IMG/VR virus record: IMGVR_UViG_3300042804_000010
Length of the DNA: 36,614 nucleotides
Source of the DNA: a virus
Strand: one strand, 5' to 3'
A program made the translations under genes and the position numbers. Below, piece after piece: positions 12,846-21,169 of the stretch (within the stretch, counting starts at the first letter, position 1; every line of letters starts with the position of its first letter). Under the pieces are notes generated by a model. The model did no database searches. It was given only the letters and a program-made list of their open reading frames with translations, and was not told the origin of the DNA.

Positions 12846-13490
12846 ATGACATTAGGTGAAAAGATTAGAGAACTAAGGACAAAAAAGGGCTATTCTCTTC
12901 GAAAATTGTCGAAAATAGTTGGTTCTGCTTCTCACTCCTATATTGCCGCTATAGAACGTGGCGAAAATAACCCATCATTAAACATATTGTCAGATATCGC
13001 AAATGTTCTTGGAGTATCAACAGCTTATTTATTGGACATTTATGATAAAGAAAAGTCTGGAAATGAAAAGTTTAAGATTGATGAACATTCAGGGGAGATT
13101 TCAAAAGAGGAGATGATTAGTGTGCCGATTGTCGGAGATGTAGCAGCAGGTGAACCAATACTCGCAGACGAACATATAGAAGGATATAGACAAATGCCCG
13201 CAAAAGACATCAATGGGGAATGTTTTTTGCTCAAAATTAAAGGCGATAGCATGATCAATGCAGGGATTCATGAAAACGATTTGGTATTAATCAGACAGCA
13301 GGCAAAAGTTGAGACCGGAGATATTGCAGCTGTAATGATTGATAATGAAAATGCGACATTAAAAAGAGTTTATTTTCATGACAATTCAGTTTTGCTGCAG
13401 TCTGAAAACTTGAAATATAAGCCGATGAATATTAATAATGAAAGAGTTAAAATTATTGGTAAAGCAATAGAAGTTATTCACAAACTATAA
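12846..13490 (+). CDS. CI-like repressor (N-terminal XRE HTH plus C-terminal S24/LexA-like peptidase domain)
   Basis: N-terminus LRKLSKIVGSASHSYIAAIERGENNPSLNIL; C-terminus ...PIVGDVAAGEPILA...KGDSMINAGI...KRVY with Ser/Lys dyad spacing typical of autocleaving repressors. Confidence 0.8.
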   Translation: MTLGEKIRELRTKKGYSLRKLSKIVGSASHSYIAAIERGENNPSLNILSDIANVLGVSTAYLLDIYDKEKSGNEKFKIDEHSGEISKEEMISVPIVGDVAAGEPILADEHIEGYRQMPAKDINGECFLLKIKGDSMINAGIHENDLVLIRQQAKVETGDIAAVMIDNENATLKRVYFHDNSVLLQSENLKYKPMNINNERVKIIGKAIEVIHKL

Positions 13491-14476: not shown

Positions 14477-15622
14477 ATGCCTCATATTGAAAAAACTGCA
14501 AATGGAAAGTATAAAGCTGTCATTGAAGTTGGCGCCGGCGCCAGGCGAAAAAGAAGAACAAAAACATTCGAAAGAAAAAAAGATGCAAAAAGCTGGCAAG
14601 CTAATATGTTAGTTGATCAAGAAAAAGGCAGATATGTTTCTTCCGCATCATTAACTGTCGGTGATCATATGCTTGACTGGCTGGATAACGAGAAGAAACC
14701 GCACATCGCCACAACTACTTATGATAATTACAAAAACCGTATAAAAACTTATATTATACCCGAAATAGGATATATTCCATTGCAGGAACTGGAGCCCTTC
14801 CATATTAGCCGATTTATGGGCTATTTAAGAAAGAATGGAAGTGTCAGGAATGATGGCGGCCTGTCTGAAAATACTCTCAAGAAAATATATGTAGTGCTTA
14901 ATTCAGCGATGGAAAAGGCAGTCCAGTGGCGGTTAATAAAATATAACCCAGTCCAGGCGATTGAATCACCACAACCGAAAAAGAAAGAAGCTAAGTCAAT
15001 GAGCTTTGAGGAAGTTCAAAAATTACTTGATTCAGTTAACGATAAATTTATGCACACATTTTTGAGTTTTGCTGTCCTTACCGGAATGAGAAAAAGTGAA
15101 ATGCTTGGCCTAGAGTGGTCAGAAGTTGATTTAGAGAATGAAACTGTCGAAGTAAAAAAGCGATTAGTTGTTAATCAAAATAGTGATCAGGGAATTGAGC
15201 ATGAAGAAGCGACAAAGCGAGAAGCCAGCAGAAGAGTGATTGCGATTCCTTCGAAACTGGCAAAAATATTGAAAAATTATAAGGTCCATCAAACAGAATT
15301 AAGGCTGCAGCTGGCGGATGAATATAATGATGAAAAGCAATTTGTTTTCTGTAAGTCTGACGGGAATCCTTATTATCCGTCAACAATTACTAGAAATGCA
15401 AAAAAGGCCATACTCAGAGCTGATTTAAGCTCCGAATACAGCCTTCATACATTGCGCCATACATTCGCTACCTTGCAACTTAAAACCGGGACAGATGCCA
15501 AAACTATACAAGAAATGCTCGGTCATGGGAATATCTCCACTACTATGGATATATACTCTCATGTTGATATTGACATGCAGAAAGAAGCCGCAAAGAAATT
15601 AGAAAATGAGATTGTTATTTAG
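14477..15622 (+). CDS. int: Tyrosine integrase (site-specific recombinase)
   Basis: C-terminal catalytic pattern ...HTLRHTFATLQL...LGHGNISTTMDIYSHV (R...HxxR...Y) and N-terminal SAM-like domain. Confidence 0.85.
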   Translation: MPHIEKTANGKYKAVIEVGAGARRKRRTKTFERKKDAKSWQANMLVDQEKGRYVSSASLTVGDHMLDWLDNEKKPHIATTTYDNYKNRIKTYIIPEIGYIPLQELEPFHISRFMGYLRKNGSVRNDGGLSENTLKKIYVVLNSAMEKAVQWRLIKYNPVQAIESPQPKKKEAKSMSFEEVQKLLDSVNDKFMHTFLSFAVLTGMRKSEMLGLEWSEVDLENETVEVKKRLVVNQNSDQGIEHEEATKREASRRVIAIPSKLAKILKNYKVHQTELRLQLADEYNDEKQFVFCKSDGNPYYPSTITRNAKKAILRADLSSEYSLHTLRHTFATLQLKTGTDAKTIQEMLGHGNISTTMDIYSHVDIDMQKEAAKKLENEIVI

Positions 15623-15753: not shown

Positions 15754-16083
15754 ATGAAAAAACAAAAAAGAGTTGTTGGTGAAGTTTATATAGCAATAGG
15801 CAGAAATACACAGAAAGTTGTAGCGGTCGGGGAAAAGAATACTTATGAAAATAAAGAAAAATTAAAAGAGGCTGGTTACAAGTGGGATGCAAGCCAAAAA
15901 GAATGGATAAAAGAAGTTAAAATTGATATGACAGATATAGACCCAAAAAGTAAAGAAGACAATTTAAAAGTAGCAAAAAGAGCAGTTGAAATTTTAAGAG
16001 AACTACAAAAACCAGAATTTATTAACTTAATTGCCGATGAGCAAAGAACAAAAAAGATTATAGAATTTGCTGACAATCACTAA
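15754..16083 (+). CDS. Hypothetical protein (109 aa), first gene of post-int cassette
   Basis: ORF with strong RBS directly downstream of the consensus promoter; no recognisable family. Confidence 0.5.
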   Translation: MKKQKRVVGEVYIAIGRNTQKVVAVGEKNTYENKEKLKEAGYKWDASQKEWIKEVKIDMTDIDPKSKEDNLKVAKRAVEILRELQKPEFINLIADEQRTKKIIEFADNH

Positions 16084-16132
16084 TAAATTTTAGCTCTGCC
16101 GGTGGCTTAATAACCGGCAAAGGAGGATAAAA

Positions 16133-16507
16133 ATGATTATCAAATTAATTTTAGAACAATTCAAAAGCATTGAGCGGAATTATCAAGGTTCAGAAAATTA
16201 TCATCAAAATGAGATTGTGAAGGTTGTTGACCCAGATAGTGAATTTTATGGAGCAACAGGAAAATACAAAGGGTTAAAAGAAAGAAAAATACCACAAGAT
16301 ATTTACGAAGTTGAAATTATATCTTACCTCTGGAAAGTTATGACTTTCAAAGAGGCTTCAGAAAAATATGATGTGGCAGTATCAACATTAAGACATAGAG
16401 CCTCAGACGGAAGATTCGAAGATGGTGATATTAGGAAGTCGGGCAAAACTTGGTTAGTCACAAAATCAGCAATGGACCGGATATACGGAGGTGCAAAAAA
16501 TGACTGA
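16133..16507 (+). CDS. HTH-containing protein (possible excisionase-like DNA-binding domain)
   Basis: RBS AAAGGAGGA; C-terminal ...MTFKEASEKYDVAVSTLRHRASDGRFEDGDIRKSGKTWLV resembles excisionase/MerR-type HTH; lies between int and the candidate attP. Confidence 0.45.
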   Translation: MIIKLILEQFKSIERNYQGSENYHQNEIVKVVDPDSEFYGATGKYKGLKERKIPQDIYEVEIISYLWKVMTFKEASEKYDVAVSTLRHRASDGRFEDGDIRKSGKTWLVTKSAMDRIYGGAKND

Positions 16508-16721
16508 GTTCGAAAAAGCGGCTAAAGATTTACCTGTAGAAGTTAGATATGACCCCATTGACCAAAAGACAGTTGAAGATTTAGTTTTTGCAGCAGAGCT
16601 AGAATTAGATATAGTAGAAGGCAACGAAATACATTACAGAGATATGGACGGCAGAACAAAAAGAGGGGTAAAAATCAGGCTTAGAAATTTCATAGAGGAA
16701 TATAAAGACAACTCAGTTTAG
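16491..16721 (+). CDS. Hypothetical small acidic protein (76 aa)
   Basis: ORF overlapping the previous gene by 17 nt (translational coupling). Confidence 0.45.
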   Translation: MQKMTEFEKAAKDLPVEVRYDPIDQKTVEDLVFAAELELDIVEGNEIHYRDMDGRTKRGVKIRLRNFIEEYKDNSV

Positions 16722-16746: not shown

Positions 16747-16769
16747 TTTTCGGCACTAGCTCGGCACTT
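16747..16769. repeat. Direct repeat copy 1 (ttttcggcactagctcggcactt) flanking the tRNA-like core
   Basis: Shares TTTT-GGCAC-n4-TCGGCACTT with 17018-17040; contains two CGGCACT units 11 bp apart. Confidence 0.5.
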
Positions 16770-16788
16770 TAGCCGGGCTTTTATTTTT
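16760..16788 (+). terminator. Candidate terminator for the plus-strand cassette
   Basis: ctcggc-acttta-gccggg stem (one G-U pair) followed by cttttattttt. Confidence 0.35.
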
Positions 16789-16789
16789 G

Positions 16790-16825
16790 CAAATAAAAAA
16801 AGGACAACCACGAAGGCTGTCCTGT
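16790..16825 (-). terminator. Rho-independent terminator (minus strand) downstream of the tRNA-like fragment
   Basis: Hairpin aggacaacc/ggctgtcct (9-bp stem, one mismatch, 5-nt loop) at 16801-16823, followed on the minus strand by tttttttattt. Confidence 0.6.
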
Positions 16826-16837
16826 TAGTATTCTTAA

Positions 16838-16887
16838 TGGTGCGCCCGACAGGATTCGAACCTGTGGCCTACGGATTAGAAGTCCGT
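16838..16887 (-). other. 3' half of a tRNA-Arg(UCU)-like sequence (anticodon arm, variable loop, T-arm, acceptor 3' strand, CCA); candidate attP core
   Basis: Minus-strand read ACGGA-CTTCTAA-TCCGT AGGCC ACAGG-TTCGAAT-CCTGT CGGGCGC A CCA; the upstream 5' part has only weak acceptor complementarity (GCGCAAG) and no D-arm, so it is not a complete tRNA. Confidence 0.6.
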
Positions 16888-16939
16888 AAGAGGTGAAATC
16901 TTGCGCTTTCTTATGTTTTCTTTTGTTGCGACATTTAGT

Positions 16940-16968
16940 AGTATATCAACACTTTTTGGAGTTGTCAA
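16940..16968 (-). promoter_or_regulatory. Near-consensus promoter on minus strand (TTGACA-17-TATACT) directed into the tRNA-like fragment
   Basis: Plus-strand tgtcaa at 16963-16968 and agtata at 16940-16945 are reverse complements of the -35 and -10 boxes with a 17-bp spacer. Confidence 0.45.
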
Positions 16969-17017
16969 GACTTTTTGAAAAAATATTTATTCTGATGTTT
17001 TCTTAAATTTTGGCACG

Positions 17018-17040
17018 AACTCGGCACTTCCTACATTATA
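17018..17040. repeat. Direct repeat copy 2 (ttttggcacgaactcggcacttc)
   Basis: About 19 of 22 positions identical to copy 1, with an exact TCGGCACTT 9-mer; the two copies bracket the promoter, tRNA fragment and terminator. Confidence 0.5.
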
Positions 17041-18237: not shown

Positions 18238-19332
18238 CTATATGCTTTTTAATTTTAGCCGGTCGCCTAAATCCAATTGCTCCAGTATATGATCATCTAG
18301 TTTGTTTATCACTGACATTTTTAAATTATAACTATCGCAATGTTTAATTATTCCCAAGTAGGAATTAACACTGGCATTAATATCCTCGATATCCACCTTC
18401 CCTTCAAAATATTTTTTATTAAGATATTTAAATCGCTTTTTCATTTTCTTTTTAGTACTTTTCCTCAATTTGCTATAACTCGGATATAGAACATATCCGC
18501 AAAAATCTATTCCTTCATTCACATGTCCAACAGTAGTTTTATTATTAAGCTGCAGCTGGAGATAATCTTCTAAAAATATTTCTATTTCCTGTCTGATTGT
18601 ATGAAGCTTCTTTTTATCTTTTCCCAAAAGTACAAAGTCATCCATATACCGGACATAGTATTTTACTTTCAAGGTGTGCTTTACAAACTTATCTAAAAAA
18701 TCAAGATAAATATTTGCAAAAAGCTGGCTCATTAAGTTGCCGATTGGTGTGCCAATCCCTTTAACTTTTTTATTTTCAAAGAAGTGATCACCTAACTGGA
18801 TACCAAACTCACCATCTTCACTTTTGATTATCTGCCAGATTAATTCCAATGTATCTCTGCAGCTAATTTTCCTTTTTATTAACTGAAATAATCTTTTATG
18901 AACTATCCTGTAAAAATATTTTGAAACGTCTGCTTTTAAAAAATATGTTTTTCCGGGCTTTCGGTCCATTATCCTTAACTTGTCCTGTAATTGATATGCA
19001 GTGAAATGAGTACCCTTTCCTCTGCGACAAGCCCCGCTATATCTGTAAAATGCCTTATCAAATATCGGGTAAAGCTTTCGATATATGCTCCACTGGACCA
19101 CTCTGTCTTTAAAAGGCAAAGCCATGATCAGTCTTTTCTTTGGCTCATAGACATAAAACTGCCTGTATTTTCCCTGTTCATATGTTTTCCACATTAATTC
19201 ATTCTGTATCTCAATTAAATTTCTCTCTAAATTATAATTAAATTTCAGCACTTCCGGTTTGTATCTTTTCCTCTTTTGAGCTTTTTGAGTTGCTATTTCT
19301 AAATTATGATAATCAGTAATTTTCTCAAACAA
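18238..19332 (-). CDS. Diversity-generating retroelement reverse transcriptase
   Basis: RT motifs FYVYEPKKRLIMALPFKDRVVQ, GTHFTAY, IGTPIGNLMSQLFANIYL (DGR-type SQ in place of the usual QGxxxSP), YVRYMDDFVLLG (YxDD); about 360 aa, as for Bordetella phage Brt; apparent TTG start at 19332. Confidence 0.9.
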   Translation of the reverse strand: MFEKITDYHNLEIATQKAQKRKRYKPEVLKFNYNLERNLIEIQNELMWKTYEQGKYRQFYVYEPKKRLIMALPFKDRVVQWSIYRKLYPIFDKAFYRYSGACRRGKGTHFTAYQLQDKLRIMDRKPGKTYFLKADVSKYFYRIVHKRLFQLIKRKISCRDTLELIWQIIKSEDGEFGIQLGDHFFENKKVKGIGTPIGNLMSQLFANIYLDFLDKFVKHTLKVKYYVRYMDDFVLLGKDKKKLHTIRQEIEIFLEDYLQLQLNNKTTVGHVNEGIDFCGYVLYPSYSKLRKSTKKKMKKRFKYLNKKYFEGKVDIEDINASVNSYLGIIKHCDSYNLKMSVINKLDDHILEQLDLGDRLKLKSI

Positions 19333-19586
19333 ATTTTTGACTGTCTTAGGAATAAATAATCACCACTCTCTATATATTAGGTGAAATATTCAAGCCCGCT
19401 CAAATGAGAACGGGCTCATAACTAATCGTGACAGCTTTCGATATTTCGCTACTTGCTATCTAATTAGTAATTCATATGTTTTCCTGGAGGGACCTCAAAA
19501 TGTATCTCAGGAAGGACTAAAGGCCTGTTCATCTTTTTGAACACTGCAGCAGAGGCCTTGACCCCATACTGTCTGATAAATTTGTA

Positions 19587-19703
19587 GATGAGCACAGGCG
19601 CCACGCACGCCAATGTTAGTGTTCACGTTCCACGGGTTATTGTTCGAGTTGACCGTCCGAGCACCGCAGATGCTACCATTGTTGAAGTTGCCACCGGCGA
19701 GGA
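19587..19703 (-). repeat. DGR template repeat (TR), 117 bp
   Basis: 102 of 117 positions identical to VR (20143-20259); all 15 differences are at TR adenines on the coding strand; carries 11 AAY codons in the VR frame. Confidence 0.9.
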
Positions 19704-19727
19704 CCAACGCCCTTAGCCCTATAAAAT

Positions 19728-20081
19728 TTATTTTTTATTTTCACAAGACTTAATCCAGCCACCCAGAAGGCGGCCAATTTCGTCTATTTTTTTGACTACA
19801 ATTTCATGTTTTCTTATAGATAAAAAATGCATATCTTTAGCAAGTCTAATTTTAACTTTTAGCTTTTTAAGTTCATCATCTATCCGGTTTAAAAATCTTA
19901 TCTTACTTCCTCGAGCTTCATTTGCATCTATTATCAATTCCATAATTCTATCTAATTTATTTTTGATTTTTGTACACATTGCAAACTTTTCTCTTTTTGG
20001 AAAATTATCAATTACTGGGTAAAAATAAAGAGTAAAGTCATAATGTTTTCTAAATATCACGAGATCATCTGTGTCTGCCAA
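19728..20081 (-). CDS. avd: DGR accessory variability determinant (Avd)
   Basis: 117-aa basic helical protein located between the target gene and TR, as in canonical DGRs; TTG start preceded by AAGGAG with a 7-nt spacer. Confidence 0.75.
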   Translation of the reverse strand: MADTDDLVIFRKHYDFTLYFYPVIDNFPKREKFAMCTKIKNKLDRIMELIIDANEARGSKIRFLNRIDDELKKLKVKIRLAKDMHFLSIRKHEIVVKKIDEIGRLLGGWIKSCENKK

Positions 20082-20131
20082 ATCATCACTCCTTCAAGTT
20101 CTAAACCTAACCAAAAACCATTATCAGATTA

Positions 20132-21169
20132 TCAGGCACTCTGATGAGCACAGGCGCCACGCACGCCAACGCTAGTGTTCACGTCCCACGGGCGAAAGTC
20201 CGAGCTGACCGTCCGAGCACCGCAGAGGCCACCACTGCTGAAGCCGCCACCGGCGAGGAGGCCAATAATAGCCACATTATTTTGCATGTAAGCTTCACCA
20301 TGCTGATAACCGCTGTCTTTACCTGCATTAAGCACATCATACCAACTGAATGAAGTTGAGCCAGTATTTCTATAAGTATACTCGTCTAATCTTTCCCAAA
20401 GGTTACCAGCGCAATCTACAAGGTTATAGCAAGAAACTGCTTGTTCTACAGTTCCAGTTGAAGTTCGACCTGAATTACTTGAACTAGACCAAGCGGCATT
20501 ATTATCATTTTCGTGGCCTTCTGGGCTACCATAGGCAGCCATTAACCATTCCTGCCTGGTTAATTTTCTTTTGTTGACATTTGCAAGACCCCTAATGAAA
20601 TCATAATCATTATAACCCTCAGTTCCTGAGACCGGGGTCGCATTGTATTCACTCACAAGTTCAGTTTCCGGCCAGGTTCCGCTGCCTTCACTTGCAATAT
20701 ATATATCAGCCCAAAAGTTTGATACCTTGACCATTCCAGTAGGGTCACAGGCAGGTCTGTAGTTCAATGACCAGACTGAGTTTGGCAGTATATTAACTGC
20801 AATTGAGGCTGTATCATCATATCTTTGAGCGTTTGTTCTGATGCGGCCATAATGAAAACCACCAATTTTTCTGCTATTATTTTCTGTATACCCGTCTGGA
20901 TAAGTAGAGTTGATAGAAATAACAAAATCGGGCTCTGCATCAGCTGATGGCTGCAAAGCATATATATAATAGTTTTCGCCAAGCGTGAAACTTACAAAAC
21001 TGCCGTCGCTATCAGCTTCAGTCAAAATAGTATCAGTTTCTTTTTTGAGATTCTGTCTATCAATTCTCAAAGCTAATGGAGGTACTGTAACTTCATCAGC
21101 TGCACTCTTTTCAATATGGCCTTTGAAATTGTAGAATGAAGGTGAATCAGCTCCAACAAAAGTTAACAT
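20132..21169 (-). CDS. DGR target protein: distal tail/receptor-binding protein with C-terminal C-type-lectin/FGE-like fold carrying the VR
   Basis: C-terminal ...SCYNLVDCAGNLWERLDEY...LLAGGGFSSGGLCGARTVSSDFRPWDVNTSVGVRGACAHQSA; VR occupies the last about 39 codons; last gene of the tail module. Confidence 0.85.
   Translation of the reverse strand: MLTFVGADSPSFYNFKGHIEKSAADEVTVPPLALRIDRQNLKKETDTILTEADSDGSFVSFTLGENYYIYALQPSADAEPDFVISINSTYPDGYTENNSRKIGGFHYGRIRTNAQRYDDTASIAVNILPNSVWSLNYRPACDPTGMVKVSNFWADIYIASEGSGTWPETELVSEYNATPVSGTEGYNDYDFIRGLANVNKRKLTRQEWLMAAYGSPEGHENDNNAAWSSSSNSGRTSTGTVEQAVSCYNLVDCAGNLWERLDEYTYRNTGSTSFSWYDVLNAGKDSGYQHGEAYMQNNVAIIGLLAGGGFSSGGLCGARTVSSDFRPWDVNTSVGVRGACAHQSA
20143..20259 (-). 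repeat. DGR variable repeat (VR), 117 bp, at the 3' end of the target gene
   Basis: Aligns to TR 19587-19703; the coding-strand 3' end is a GC-rich invariant segment ggcgtgcgtggcgcctgtgctcatc (IMH-like). Confidence 0.9.

What the first reader, a model, noticed from the sequence alone, without database searches (positions are those of the whole stretch)
16790..16968. Promoter, tRNA-Arg(UCU) 3' half and terminator form a compact unit: likely attP core
A 50-nt segment reproduces the anticodon arm, variable loop, T-arm and acceptor 3' strand plus CCA of a tRNA-Arg(UCU) but lacks a proper 5' acceptor strand and D-arm, as expected for a tRNA-integrating phage. It is preceded on the minus strand by TTGACA-17-TATACT and followed by a strong terminator, so it may also be transcribed as a small tRNA-like RNA.
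Basis: partly seen in the sequence, partly recalled or inferred. Interest (0 to 1): 0.65.

Follow-up and report, generated by a model that had tools for sequence, protein, structure and literature searches.

The report
Phage attP in tRNA-Arg operon
This is the attachment site of a temperate Halanaerobium phage: it carries the last 50 bases of the host tRNA-Arg(UCU) gene so that integration rebuilds the tRNA, and it also brings a terminator and a host-tRNA-style promoter that probably keep the split tRNA operon (including tRNA-His) working.

Summary
On the minus strand there is a near-consensus promoter (16968-16940), a 3' tRNA-Arg(UCU) fragment with no D-arm (16887-16838) and a strong terminator (16823-16801). 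ARAGORN finds no tRNA.

The attP reading is supported. All four att forms were recovered from public assemblies:
- attP in about 20 phage contigs.
- attB in 11 Halanaerobium contigs.
- attL in L131, where an intact tRNA-Arg is followed by the phage terminator and int.
- attR in L173, which reads phage promoter, pseudo-5' half, core, tRNA-His.

Phage/host identity runs from the first base of the anticodon stem to CCA+TT (52 nt, 16836-16887). Paired GGCAC repeats flank it at 16748-16769 and 17008-17029. A tyrosine integrase lies at 14477-15622.

The target is the third gene of a Pro-Gly-Arg-His tRNA operon with a single promoter. The phage promoter's best matches in 82 kb of host DNA are host tRNA promoters. 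I infer (about 0.55, untested) that the phage terminator ends the Pro-Gly-Arg transcript and the phage promoter re-drives tRNA-His in lysogens.

The acceptor-like GCGC 5' strand is not beyond chance. This is a known kind of element with a possibly new twist. Interest is moderate.

The parts
14477..15622 (+). Tyrosine integrase (381 aa), reading towards attP
   Evidence: Pfam PF00589 (E 9.5e-31) plus SAM-like core-binding domains. Homologues of 93% identity sit next to the same att core. Homologues of 51-56% identity sit next to a near-identical tRNA-Arg(UCU) core.
16748..16769 (.). Int-proximal pair of arm-type repeats (TTTCGGCACTAGCTCGGCACTT)
   Evidence: Direct-repeat family D2. The pattern GGCACNNNCTCGGCACT occurs only twice in the window, with 0 expected by chance. 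Both copies flank the core. The same GTGCC repeats are found in relatives. Binding by Int is inferred.
16758..16779 (+). Terminator-like hairpin closing the int-side (+) transcription unit, overlapping the arm repeats
   Evidence: Conserved in L124.
16801..16823 (-). Intrinsic terminator 14 nt after the CCA. At attL it follows the rebuilt tRNA-Arg
   Evidence: 9-bp stem, 5-nt loop, T7. Present in all variants. In the L166 variant one stem pair changes from G-U to G-C and another from G-C to G-U, so the hairpin is kept. Seen directly after the intact tRNA-Arg in attL contig L131.
16836..16887 (-). att core: 52 nt shared with the host tRNA-Arg(UCU) gene (tRNA positions 27-76 plus TT)
   Evidence: The identity boundaries come from comparing attP, attB, attL and attR. 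The discriminator (16841) is A here and in host L165, and G in most hosts and phage variants.
16876..16882 (-). Anticodon loop CTTCTAA, the probable 7-nt overlap (crossover) region. It is flanked by the inverted repeat TACGGA/TCCGTA
   Evidence: The identity block starts exactly at the 5' base of the anticodon stem. This corresponds to the anticodon-centred 'A' subsite of PMC4383910. The crossover itself has not been mapped.
16888..16906 (-). Phage-specific pseudo-5' half (GCGCAAGATTTCACCTCTT): a 5-of-7 acceptor-like match and no D-arm
   Evidence: Identical in all close phage variants and absent in the distant relative L169. The chance of such a match is about 0.11.
16907..16939 (-). Initial transcribed region and leader (ACTAAATGTCGCAACAAAAGAAAACATAAGAAA)
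   Evidence: Resembles the -10/+1 region of the host Pro-Gly-Arg-His operon promoter (TATACTAnTAAnTGTCG; 16 of 17 with L165).
16940..16968 (-). Sigma-70-type promoter TTGACA-17-(TG)TATACT, facing the core. At attR it faces the host tRNA-His
   Evidence: 11 of 12 positions plus TG. Both hexamers, the TG and the 17-nt spacing are kept in the L124-type variant although only 8 of 17 spacer bases agree. The best hit in host DNA is the tRNA-Leu promoter (E 8e-6). Seen upstream of tRNA-His in attR contig L173.
17008..17029 (.). Lysis-side pair of arm-type repeats (TTTTGGCACGAACTCGGCACTT)
   Evidence: Together with 16748-16769 it delimits an attP of about 280 bp (16748-17029).

Best explanation
Window 16748-17029 is the attP site of a temperate siphophage of Halanaerobium, about 36.6 kb long. 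Its tyrosine integrase (14477-15622) recombines a 52-nt core (16836-16887) with the identical stretch of the host tRNA-Arg(UCU) gene. The crossover is most likely in the anticodon loop. Paired GGCAC arm repeats on both sides would serve as accessory integrase sites.

Shown: integration leaves an intact tRNA-Arg whose 3' part and terminator come from the phage (attL). It also leaves a displaced 3' fragment fused to the phage pseudo-5' half (attR).

Inferred (about 0.55): the target is the third gene of a single-promoter operon, tRNA-Pro-Gly-Arg-His. The phage terminator would therefore end the Pro-Gly-Arg transcript. The outward-facing, host-tRNA-type promoter at 16968-16940 would then restart transcription across the dead fragment into tRNA-His, cancelling the polar effect of a 36-kb insertion. 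In the circular phage form the same promoter and terminator would yield only a short tRNA-like RNA of about 135 nt, probably a by-product.
For: attP identity:
- The phage segment is an exact 50-52-nt match to full tRNA-Arg(UCU) genes.
- attL contig L131 reads tRNA-Gly 3' end, then an intact tRNA-Arg (ARAGORN; Rfam 73.6 bits), then the phage terminator, arm repeats and int.
- attR contig L173 reads phage late gene, arm repeats, promoter, pseudo-5' half, core, host spacer, tRNA-His.
- Both junction contigs are k=141 assemblies, so they cannot be chimeras made across a 52-nt repeat.
- The metagenome scan found 11 attB and 10 attP contigs.
- Logan k=31 contigs stop exactly 30 nt inside the core boundaries, as expected at a graph branch.
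- The arm repeats occur twice against 0 expected.
- The integrase domains are present.
- Relatives of 51-56% identity sit at the same tRNA-Arg.

Host: Halanaerobium, from the trigger-factor cluster and from the names given to integrase homologues.

Promoter role:
- The host operon has one promoter before tRNA-Pro, and only 22-25 nt separate tRNA-Arg from tRNA-His.
- The promoter hexamers, TG and spacing are conserved despite a diverged spacer.
- The best matches of both promoter variants in 82 kb of host DNA are the tRNA-Leu promoter (E 8e-6 and 2e-5) and the -10/+1 region of the Pro operon.
- No gene lies downstream of the promoter in the phage form.
- The L124-type phage has a terminator between its last late gene and the promoter, so read-through from late genes cannot supply tRNA-His.
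- tDNAs internal to operons are normally avoided by integrating elements (preprint 10.1101/2020.11.02.365908).
Against: - No transcription data are available, so promoter and terminator are consensus matches only.
- It is unknown whether tRNA-His(GUG) is single-copy in the host. A second copy would remove the need for compensation.
- A more distant phage with the same core (L169, integrase 56% identical) shows no consensus promoter upstream of its core. A tRNA-Ser-targeting relative (L181) has only weak promoter-like sites. An attP promoter is therefore not universal in this integrase family.
- The close phage variants are identical from the -10 box to the core, so that stretch carries no covariation information.
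- The crossover point is not mapped.
- attL and attR come from a variant phage (integrase 93% identical), not from the window phage itself.
Confidence: 0.88

Rival explanations
1. The promoter, pseudo-tRNA and terminator form a phage small-RNA gene in their own right. It would be a D-arm-less tRNA-like RNA made during infection, for example as a decoy for a tRNA-Arg-directed nuclease or as a processing or regulatory RNA. The attP role would merely overlap it.
For: - In the phage form the unit is a self-contained transcription unit of about 135 nt.
- Rfam's tRNA model just passes its gathering score (32.5 against 29).
- The fold is more stable than shuffled sequences (z = -3.5).
- The leader and pseudo-5' half are invariant among close variants.
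Against: - Nearly all of the Rfam score comes from the host-identical 3' half. L169, which has no acceptor-like strand, still scores 25.4 bits.
- The acceptor-like GCGC has a chance probability of about 0.11.
- There is no D-arm, and ARAGORN rejects the sequence.
- The pseudo-5' half is not conserved in the more distant phage with the same core.
- The invariance among close variants can be explained by recent shared ancestry.
Confidence: 0.1
2. The promoter and pseudo-5' half are a decaying relic of a complete host tRNA-Arg gene, with its own promoter, that an ancestor phage once captured. On this view the promoter has no present function.
For: - The promoter resembles host tRNA promoters.
- In one Halanaerobiaceae genome (L107), tRNA-Arg(UCU) is a stand-alone gene with its own TTGACA promoter.
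- The GCGC start is what a degraded acceptor strand would look like.
Against: - A relic under no selection should not keep 11 of 12 hexamer positions, the TG and an exact 17-nt spacing in two variants whose spacers agree at only 8 of 17 bases, while the adjacent tRNA 5' half has been obliterated.
- An origin by capture and a present function are not mutually exclusive.
Confidence: 0.15
3. The promoter acts on recombination or on phage gene control. For example, transcription through attP could modulate integrase access, or read-through antisense RNA could damp int and the neighbouring ORFs only in the circular form.
For: - The promoter faces the core and, beyond the terminator, the convergent int-side genes.
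- Regulation that depends on the element's state (integrated or circular), acting through promoters close to att sites, is known for ICEs (PMC13023037, listed).
Against: - A strong terminator (9-bp stem, T7) sits between the promoter and the int-side genes.
- The promoter looks like a stable-RNA promoter rather than a regulated phage promoter.
Confidence: 0.07

Closest known systems
tRNA-gene attachment sites of tyrosine-integrase prophages and genomic islands, anticodon-centred ('A') subsite (Reiter 1989; Williams 2002; Islander database PMC4383910). Examples recalled from memory: P22, P4, HP1, pSAM2, T12.
   Same: - A tyrosine integrase lies beside an attP of about 250-300 bp.
- The attP contains the 3' fragment of the target tDNA.
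- Integration restores the tRNA and displaces a 3' fragment.
- The identity block runs from the anticodon stem to the 3' end.
- Arm repeats lie on both sides of the core.
   Different: - The target is an internal gene of a four-tRNA operon, a position that integrating elements were reported to avoid in Klebsiella (10.1101/2020.11.02.365908).
- The attP carries a near-consensus, host-tRNA-like promoter pointing out of the prophage towards the next tRNA gene.
- I found no description of such a promoter in the searchable library. Older subscription literature could not be searched.
tRNA-dependent lysogeny of actinobacteriophages (Guerrero-Bustamante & Hatfull 2024, PMC10865867)
   Same: - A tyrosine integrase targets a tRNA gene.
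- The phage carries sequence that compensates for damage done to host tRNA supply.
   Different: - In that system the common core is only about 10 bp, the host tRNA is not rebuilt, and a complete phage tRNA gene complements it.
- Here the core is 52 nt, the tRNA is rebuilt, and the phage has no complete tRNA.
- The compensation proposed here concerns transcription of the next gene, not replacement of the disrupted one.
Listeria phage PSA and other Firmicutes phages that integrate at tRNA-Arg genes (recalled from memory, not tested)
   Same: A temperate siphophage of a Firmicute, of similar genome size, using a tRNA-Arg gene as attB.
   Different: - There is no detectable DNA similarity to any phage in INPHARED.
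- The integrase is at most 38% identical to any phage integrase there.
- The core is longer and anticodon-centred.

Membership tests
tRNA-targeting attP of a tyrosine-integrase temperate phage | A tyrosine recombinase gene lies adjacent to the site | tested here: met
   PF00589 with E 9.5e-31, plus SAM-like domains, at 14477-15622. This is 1.2 kb from the core.
tRNA-targeting attP of a tyrosine-integrase temperate phage | The attP contains a terminal fragment of the target tRNA gene, identical to the host | tested here: met
   A 50-52-nt exact match to host tRNA-Arg(UCU) positions 27-76.
tRNA-targeting attP of a tyrosine-integrase temperate phage | Integration regenerates an intact tRNA at one junction and leaves a displaced fragment at the other | tested here: met
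   attL contig L131 has an intact tRNA-Arg (ARAGORN; 73.6 bits). attR contig L173 has the pseudo-5' half plus the 3' fragment, and ARAGORN calls only tRNA-His there. Both junctions were observed for a variant whose integrase is 93% identical, not for the window phage itself.
tRNA-targeting attP of a tyrosine-integrase temperate phage | Arm-type integrase binding repeats flank the core within about 250-300 bp | tested here: inconclusive
   Repeats are present (16748-16769 and 17008-17029; 2 copies against 0 expected) and recur in relatives. Protein binding cannot be tested here.
Anticodon-loop ('A') crossover subsite | Strand exchange occurs within the 7-nt anticodon loop, flanked by the symmetric anticodon stem | not testable with these tools
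   The identity block starts exactly at the 5' base of the anticodon stem, which fits this subsite. attP and attB are identical across the core, so the crossover cannot be located from sequence.
Functional phage-encoded tRNA gene | A complete cloverleaf with a 7-bp acceptor stem and a D-arm | tested here: not met
   ARAGORN finds none. The Rfam alignment has 9 nt in place of the D-arm and two acceptor mismatches, at 32.5 bits against 73.6 for the real gene.
tRNA-dependent lysogeny (PMC10865867) | A short common core (about 10 bp) so that the host tRNA is not rebuilt, plus a complete phage tRNA of the same isotype | tested here: not met
   The core is 52 nt, the tRNA is rebuilt at attL, and the window contains no tRNA gene.
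Bacterial sigma-70 promoter / intrinsic terminator | Consensus hexamers with 17-nt spacing; a GC-rich hairpin followed by a T-run; activity in vivo | tested here: inconclusive
   The sequence criteria are met (11 of 12 positions plus TG; 9-bp stem plus T7) and are conserved in variants. Activity cannot be tested here.

The most novel reading that the evidence does not exclude
A temperate phage can use an internal gene of an essential tRNA operon as its attachment site because its attP is a complete 'operon repair kit'. The kit has three parts: the 3' tRNA half rebuilds tRNA-Arg, a terminator closes the upstream transcript, and a promoter copied from or modelled on host tRNA promoters restarts transcription into tRNA-His. 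If tRNA-His is single-copy, lysogen viability would depend on this phage promoter. That would be a transcriptional counterpart of tRNA-dependent lysogeny.
Probability: 0.5. Interest if true: 0.55.

Novelty: new variant of a known kind. Interest (0 to 1): 0.4.

Why it matters
The attP itself is textbook, but it has practical value. It fixes the host (Halanaerobium), the integration site and the prophage ends for a family of uncultured phages that carry diversity-generating retroelements (DGRs).

The wider point concerns site choice. Integrating elements were reported to avoid tRNA genes that have co-transcribed genes downstream. This phage sits in such a gene and carries an outward, tRNA-type promoter exactly where one is needed. 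If that promoter is functional, it shows how mobile elements can neutralise polar effects and so widen the set of usable attachment sites. It would also mean that outward promoters at prophage ends should be considered when predicting att sites and designing integration vectors.

Tried and rejected
- The single genome-contig scan used a 29-nt T-arm/acceptor pattern that proved too generic. It returned more than 120 hits, mostly Sphingomonadales and Acidobacteriota, and was capped. Only 3 loci shared the full 50 nt, one of them a Halanaerobiaceae MAG. No isolate genome with the prophage could therefore be retrieved.\n- INPHARED searches found no DNA match, and integrase identity there is at most 38%. 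There is no named phage relative.\n- I tested whether the acceptor-like GCGCAAG 5' strand is significant. A match of at least 5 of 7 with the first four positions paired arises in about 11% of random upstream sequences. I therefore do not treat it as evidence for a tRNA-like function.\n- The lookup of the window's last late gene and the first viral-contig scan gave only attP forms or contigs broken in the core. attR was found only through the variant phage's 74-aa protein.\n- viral-contig scans for the opposite ends of the more distant lineages and a profile-based locus search gave nothing usable. Whether those lineages also carry an outward promoter remains open, apart from L169 and L181, which lack a strong one.\n- A link between the tRNA-like piece and the nearby DGR reverse transcriptase (tRNA as primer) was considered and dropped. 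From my own knowledge, DGR cDNA synthesis is self-primed. In addition, the piece is fully explained as the att core.\n- Literature searches found no prior description of an attP promoter that re-drives downstream tRNAs. Williams 2002 could not be read.

Full report
**Observation**

On the minus strand the region reads as follows:
- promoter TTGACA-17-(TG)TATACT at 16968-16940;
- a leader of about 27 nt;
- GCGCAAGATTTCACCTCTT at 16906-16888;
- 50 nt that form the anticodon arm (UCU), variable loop, T-arm, 3' acceptor strand, discriminator A and CCA, at 16887-16838;
- 14 nt later, a 9-bp hairpin followed by T7, at 16823-16801.

ARAGORN finds no tRNA in the window. Rfam's tRNA model gives a marginal hit of 32.5 bits against a gathering score of 29. 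In that hit 9 nt stand in place of the D-arm and the acceptor stem has two mismatches.

**Context**

The window is a complete, circularly permuted temperate phage of about 36.6 kb. It corresponds to JGI contig Ga0079286_100032. An independent ENA contig of 36,628 bp has different ends.

Gene order around the site is:
- a LexA-like repressor at 12846-13490;
- a tyrosine integrase at 14477-15622;
- three small ORFs, all on the + strand;
- the att region;
- the lysis genes, a diversity-generating retroelement (DGR) and the structural genes, on the minus strand.

Nothing in INPHARED is similar at the DNA level.

**All four att forms**

attB:
- A 29-nt scan of species-representative genomes was too generic. 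It did show three full tRNA-Arg(UCU) genes identical to the phage over 50 nt, one of them from a Halanaerobiaceae MAG. In each, identity stops exactly at the 5' base of the anticodon stem.
- A degenerate pattern that accepts either the phage or the host 5' context found 21 JGI metagenome contigs, 10 attP and 11 attB.
- In the attB contigs the tRNA-Arg is the third gene of a cluster tRNA-Pro(UGG), Gly(UCC), Arg(UCU), His(GUG).
- The attB contigs are Halanaerobium. The trigger factor encoded on one of them falls in a 90% cluster with H. saccharolyticum.

attL:
- Contig L131 carries an integrase 93% identical to the window's.
- It reads tRNA-Gly 3' end, TTTTAT, an intact tRNA-Arg (ARAGORN; Rfam 73.6 bits), then the phage flank with terminator, repeats and int.

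attR:
- Contig L173 reads phage late gene, repeats, promoter, leader, pseudo-5' half, core, host spacer TTAAAATTAAAACCTAATAT, tRNA-His.

Reliability of the junctions:
- Both junction contigs are k=141 assemblies. A 52-nt repeat cannot create them artefactually.
- Logan (k=31) contigs end exactly 30 nt inside the core boundaries, as a de Bruijn graph branch predicts.

The shared core is 16836-16887, that is tRNA positions 27-76 plus TT. The discriminator is polymorphic in both phage and host: A in the window and in host L165, G elsewhere.

**Anatomy of attP**

- A 22-nt unit holding two GGCAC half-sites occurs at 16748-16769 and 17008-17029 and nowhere else in the window (0 expected).
- Equivalent GTGCC repeats flank the core in relatives whose integrases are 93%, 51% and 52% identical.
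- A relative whose integrase is 56% identical has the same core but different repeats, TTTTAGCC.
- These are probably arm-type integrase sites, giving an attP of about 280 bp. That is the usual size (PMC4383910).
- The identity block begins at the anticodon stem, and the phage extends the stem's symmetry to TACGGA-N7-TCCGTA. This fits the anticodon-centred subsite used by about half of the islands catalogued in Islander.
- The crossover itself cannot be located, because attP and attB are identical across the core.

**What the terminator and promoter are for**

The host operon has one promoter, TTGACC-17-TATACT, before tRNA-Pro. The gaps between the tRNA genes are only 6-25 nt, and an AT-rich hairpin follows tRNA-His. 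A 36-kb insertion into tRNA-Arg therefore cuts tRNA-His off from its promoter.

At attL the phage hairpin sits 14 nt after the rebuilt tRNA-Arg. Every related lineage examined at that junction also supplies a terminator there.

At attR the phage promoter points at tRNA-His with no terminator in between.

The promoter shows signs of constraint and of kinship with host stable-RNA promoters:
- Window-type and L124-type phages keep both hexamers, the TG and the 17-nt spacing, although only 8 of 17 spacer bases agree.
- In 82 kb of host DNA, the best matches of both variants are the tRNA-Leu(UAG) promoter (31 of 38, E 8e-6; 25 of 27, E 2e-5) and the -10/+1 region of the Pro-Gly-Arg-His operon (TATACTAnTAAnTGTCG).
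- In the phage form there is no gene downstream of the promoter.
- In the L124-type phage a terminator separates the last late gene from the promoter, so read-through from late genes cannot serve tRNA-His.

A Klebsiella survey reported that tDNAs with co-transcribed downstream genes are not used by integrating elements, and attributed this to polarity (10.1101/2020.11.02.365908).

I infer that this attP carries a polarity-compensating promoter. I put the probability at about 0.55.

Caveats:
- No expression data are available.
- The copy number of tRNA-His in the host is unknown.
- The 56%-identity relative L169 has the same core but no consensus promoter.
- The tRNA-Ser-targeting relative L181 has only weak promoter-like sites.

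**The tRNA-like RNA idea**

In the circular form, promoter and terminator delimit an RNA of about 135 nt. It folds into the anticodon and T arms plus a 4-bp GCGC/GCGC helix.

Several points argue against a function of its own:
- Almost all of the Rfam score comes from the host-identical half. L169, which lacks any acceptor-like strand, still scores 25.4 bits.
- A 5-of-7 acceptor-like match with the first four positions paired arises by chance in about 11% of random upstream sequences.
- The pseudo-5' half is not conserved in L169.

I regard the transcript as a likely by-product. A function of its own is not excluded (about 0.1).

**Comparison with known systems**

This is a member of the large class of tyrosine-integrase elements that target tRNA genes and restore them. 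The defining features I could test are met, as listed in the membership table.

It is not a phage tRNA gene. It is also not tRNA-dependent lysogeny (PMC10865867), where the core is about 10 bp, the tRNA is destroyed, and a whole phage tRNA compensates.

Two things may be new: the use of an internal operon gene as the target, and the attP-borne tRNA-type promoter.

**Verdict**

- The interpretation (attP core) is supported with near certainty.
- The promoter's proposed role is a reasonable, testable inference.
- The finding is ordinary in kind, with one moderately interesting architectural twist. Interest is 0.4.

Noticed in passing
window 18238-21169 (minus strand): A complete diversity-generating retroelement (DGR). 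It comprises a reverse transcriptase (18238-19332), template repeat TR (19587-19703), an Avd-like gene (19728-20081), and an Mtd-like target gene (20132-21169) with variable repeat VR at 20143-20259. All 15 differences within the 117-nt repeat fall at TR adenines. In the variant phage, the RT-Avd spacer gives an Rfam RT-14 RNA hit just under threshold (46.7 against 48.1 bits).
   Followed up: partly
window 15754-16721 (+): Three small ORFs lie between int and attP. They are absent from the L124-type variant, where int abuts attP, so they look like an inserted cargo module. One of them (16133-16507) has an HTH_59 domain and could be an excisionase-like protein.
   Followed up: no
L173 1847-5494: In the attR contig, the host sequence after tRNA-His differs from all attB contigs. 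It encodes another tyrosine recombinase (313 aa) and a DnaB-like helicase. A second integrative element appears to occupy the 3' end of tRNA-His, next to the prophage.
   Followed up: no
window 16836-16887 and loci L134, L145, L148, L149, L159: The two attP arms reassort among phage variants. Window-type lysis-side arms are joined to different int-side arms, and the switch occurs at the core. The discriminator base is A or G in both phages and hosts. The att core seems to act as a recombination joint between phage lineages.
   Followed up: partly
L180, L182-L185, L169, L181: Integrases 50-56% identical to the window's target the same tRNA-Arg(UCU) in Pro-Gly-Arg or Pro-Arg clusters (L180, L182-L185, L169). 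One targets tRNA-Ser(UGA) (L181). Each lineage has its own arm repeats and, except L169, its own terminator after the tRNA 3' end.
   Followed up: partly
one search hit list (P0010, P0028, P0046): Several close integrase homologues are labelled 'Candidatus Woesearchaeota archaeon' in NCBI MAGs. Given the bacterial tRNA operon target and the Halanaerobium host, these contigs are probably mis-binned.
   Followed up: no
L153 2199-2248; L161; window 16940-17000: Halanaerobium tRNA promoters share an A-rich upstream tract, TTGACA, a CAAAAAG-type spacer and a TATACTAnTAAnTGTCG start region. This may be a genus-specific signature of stable-RNA promoters.
   Followed up: partly
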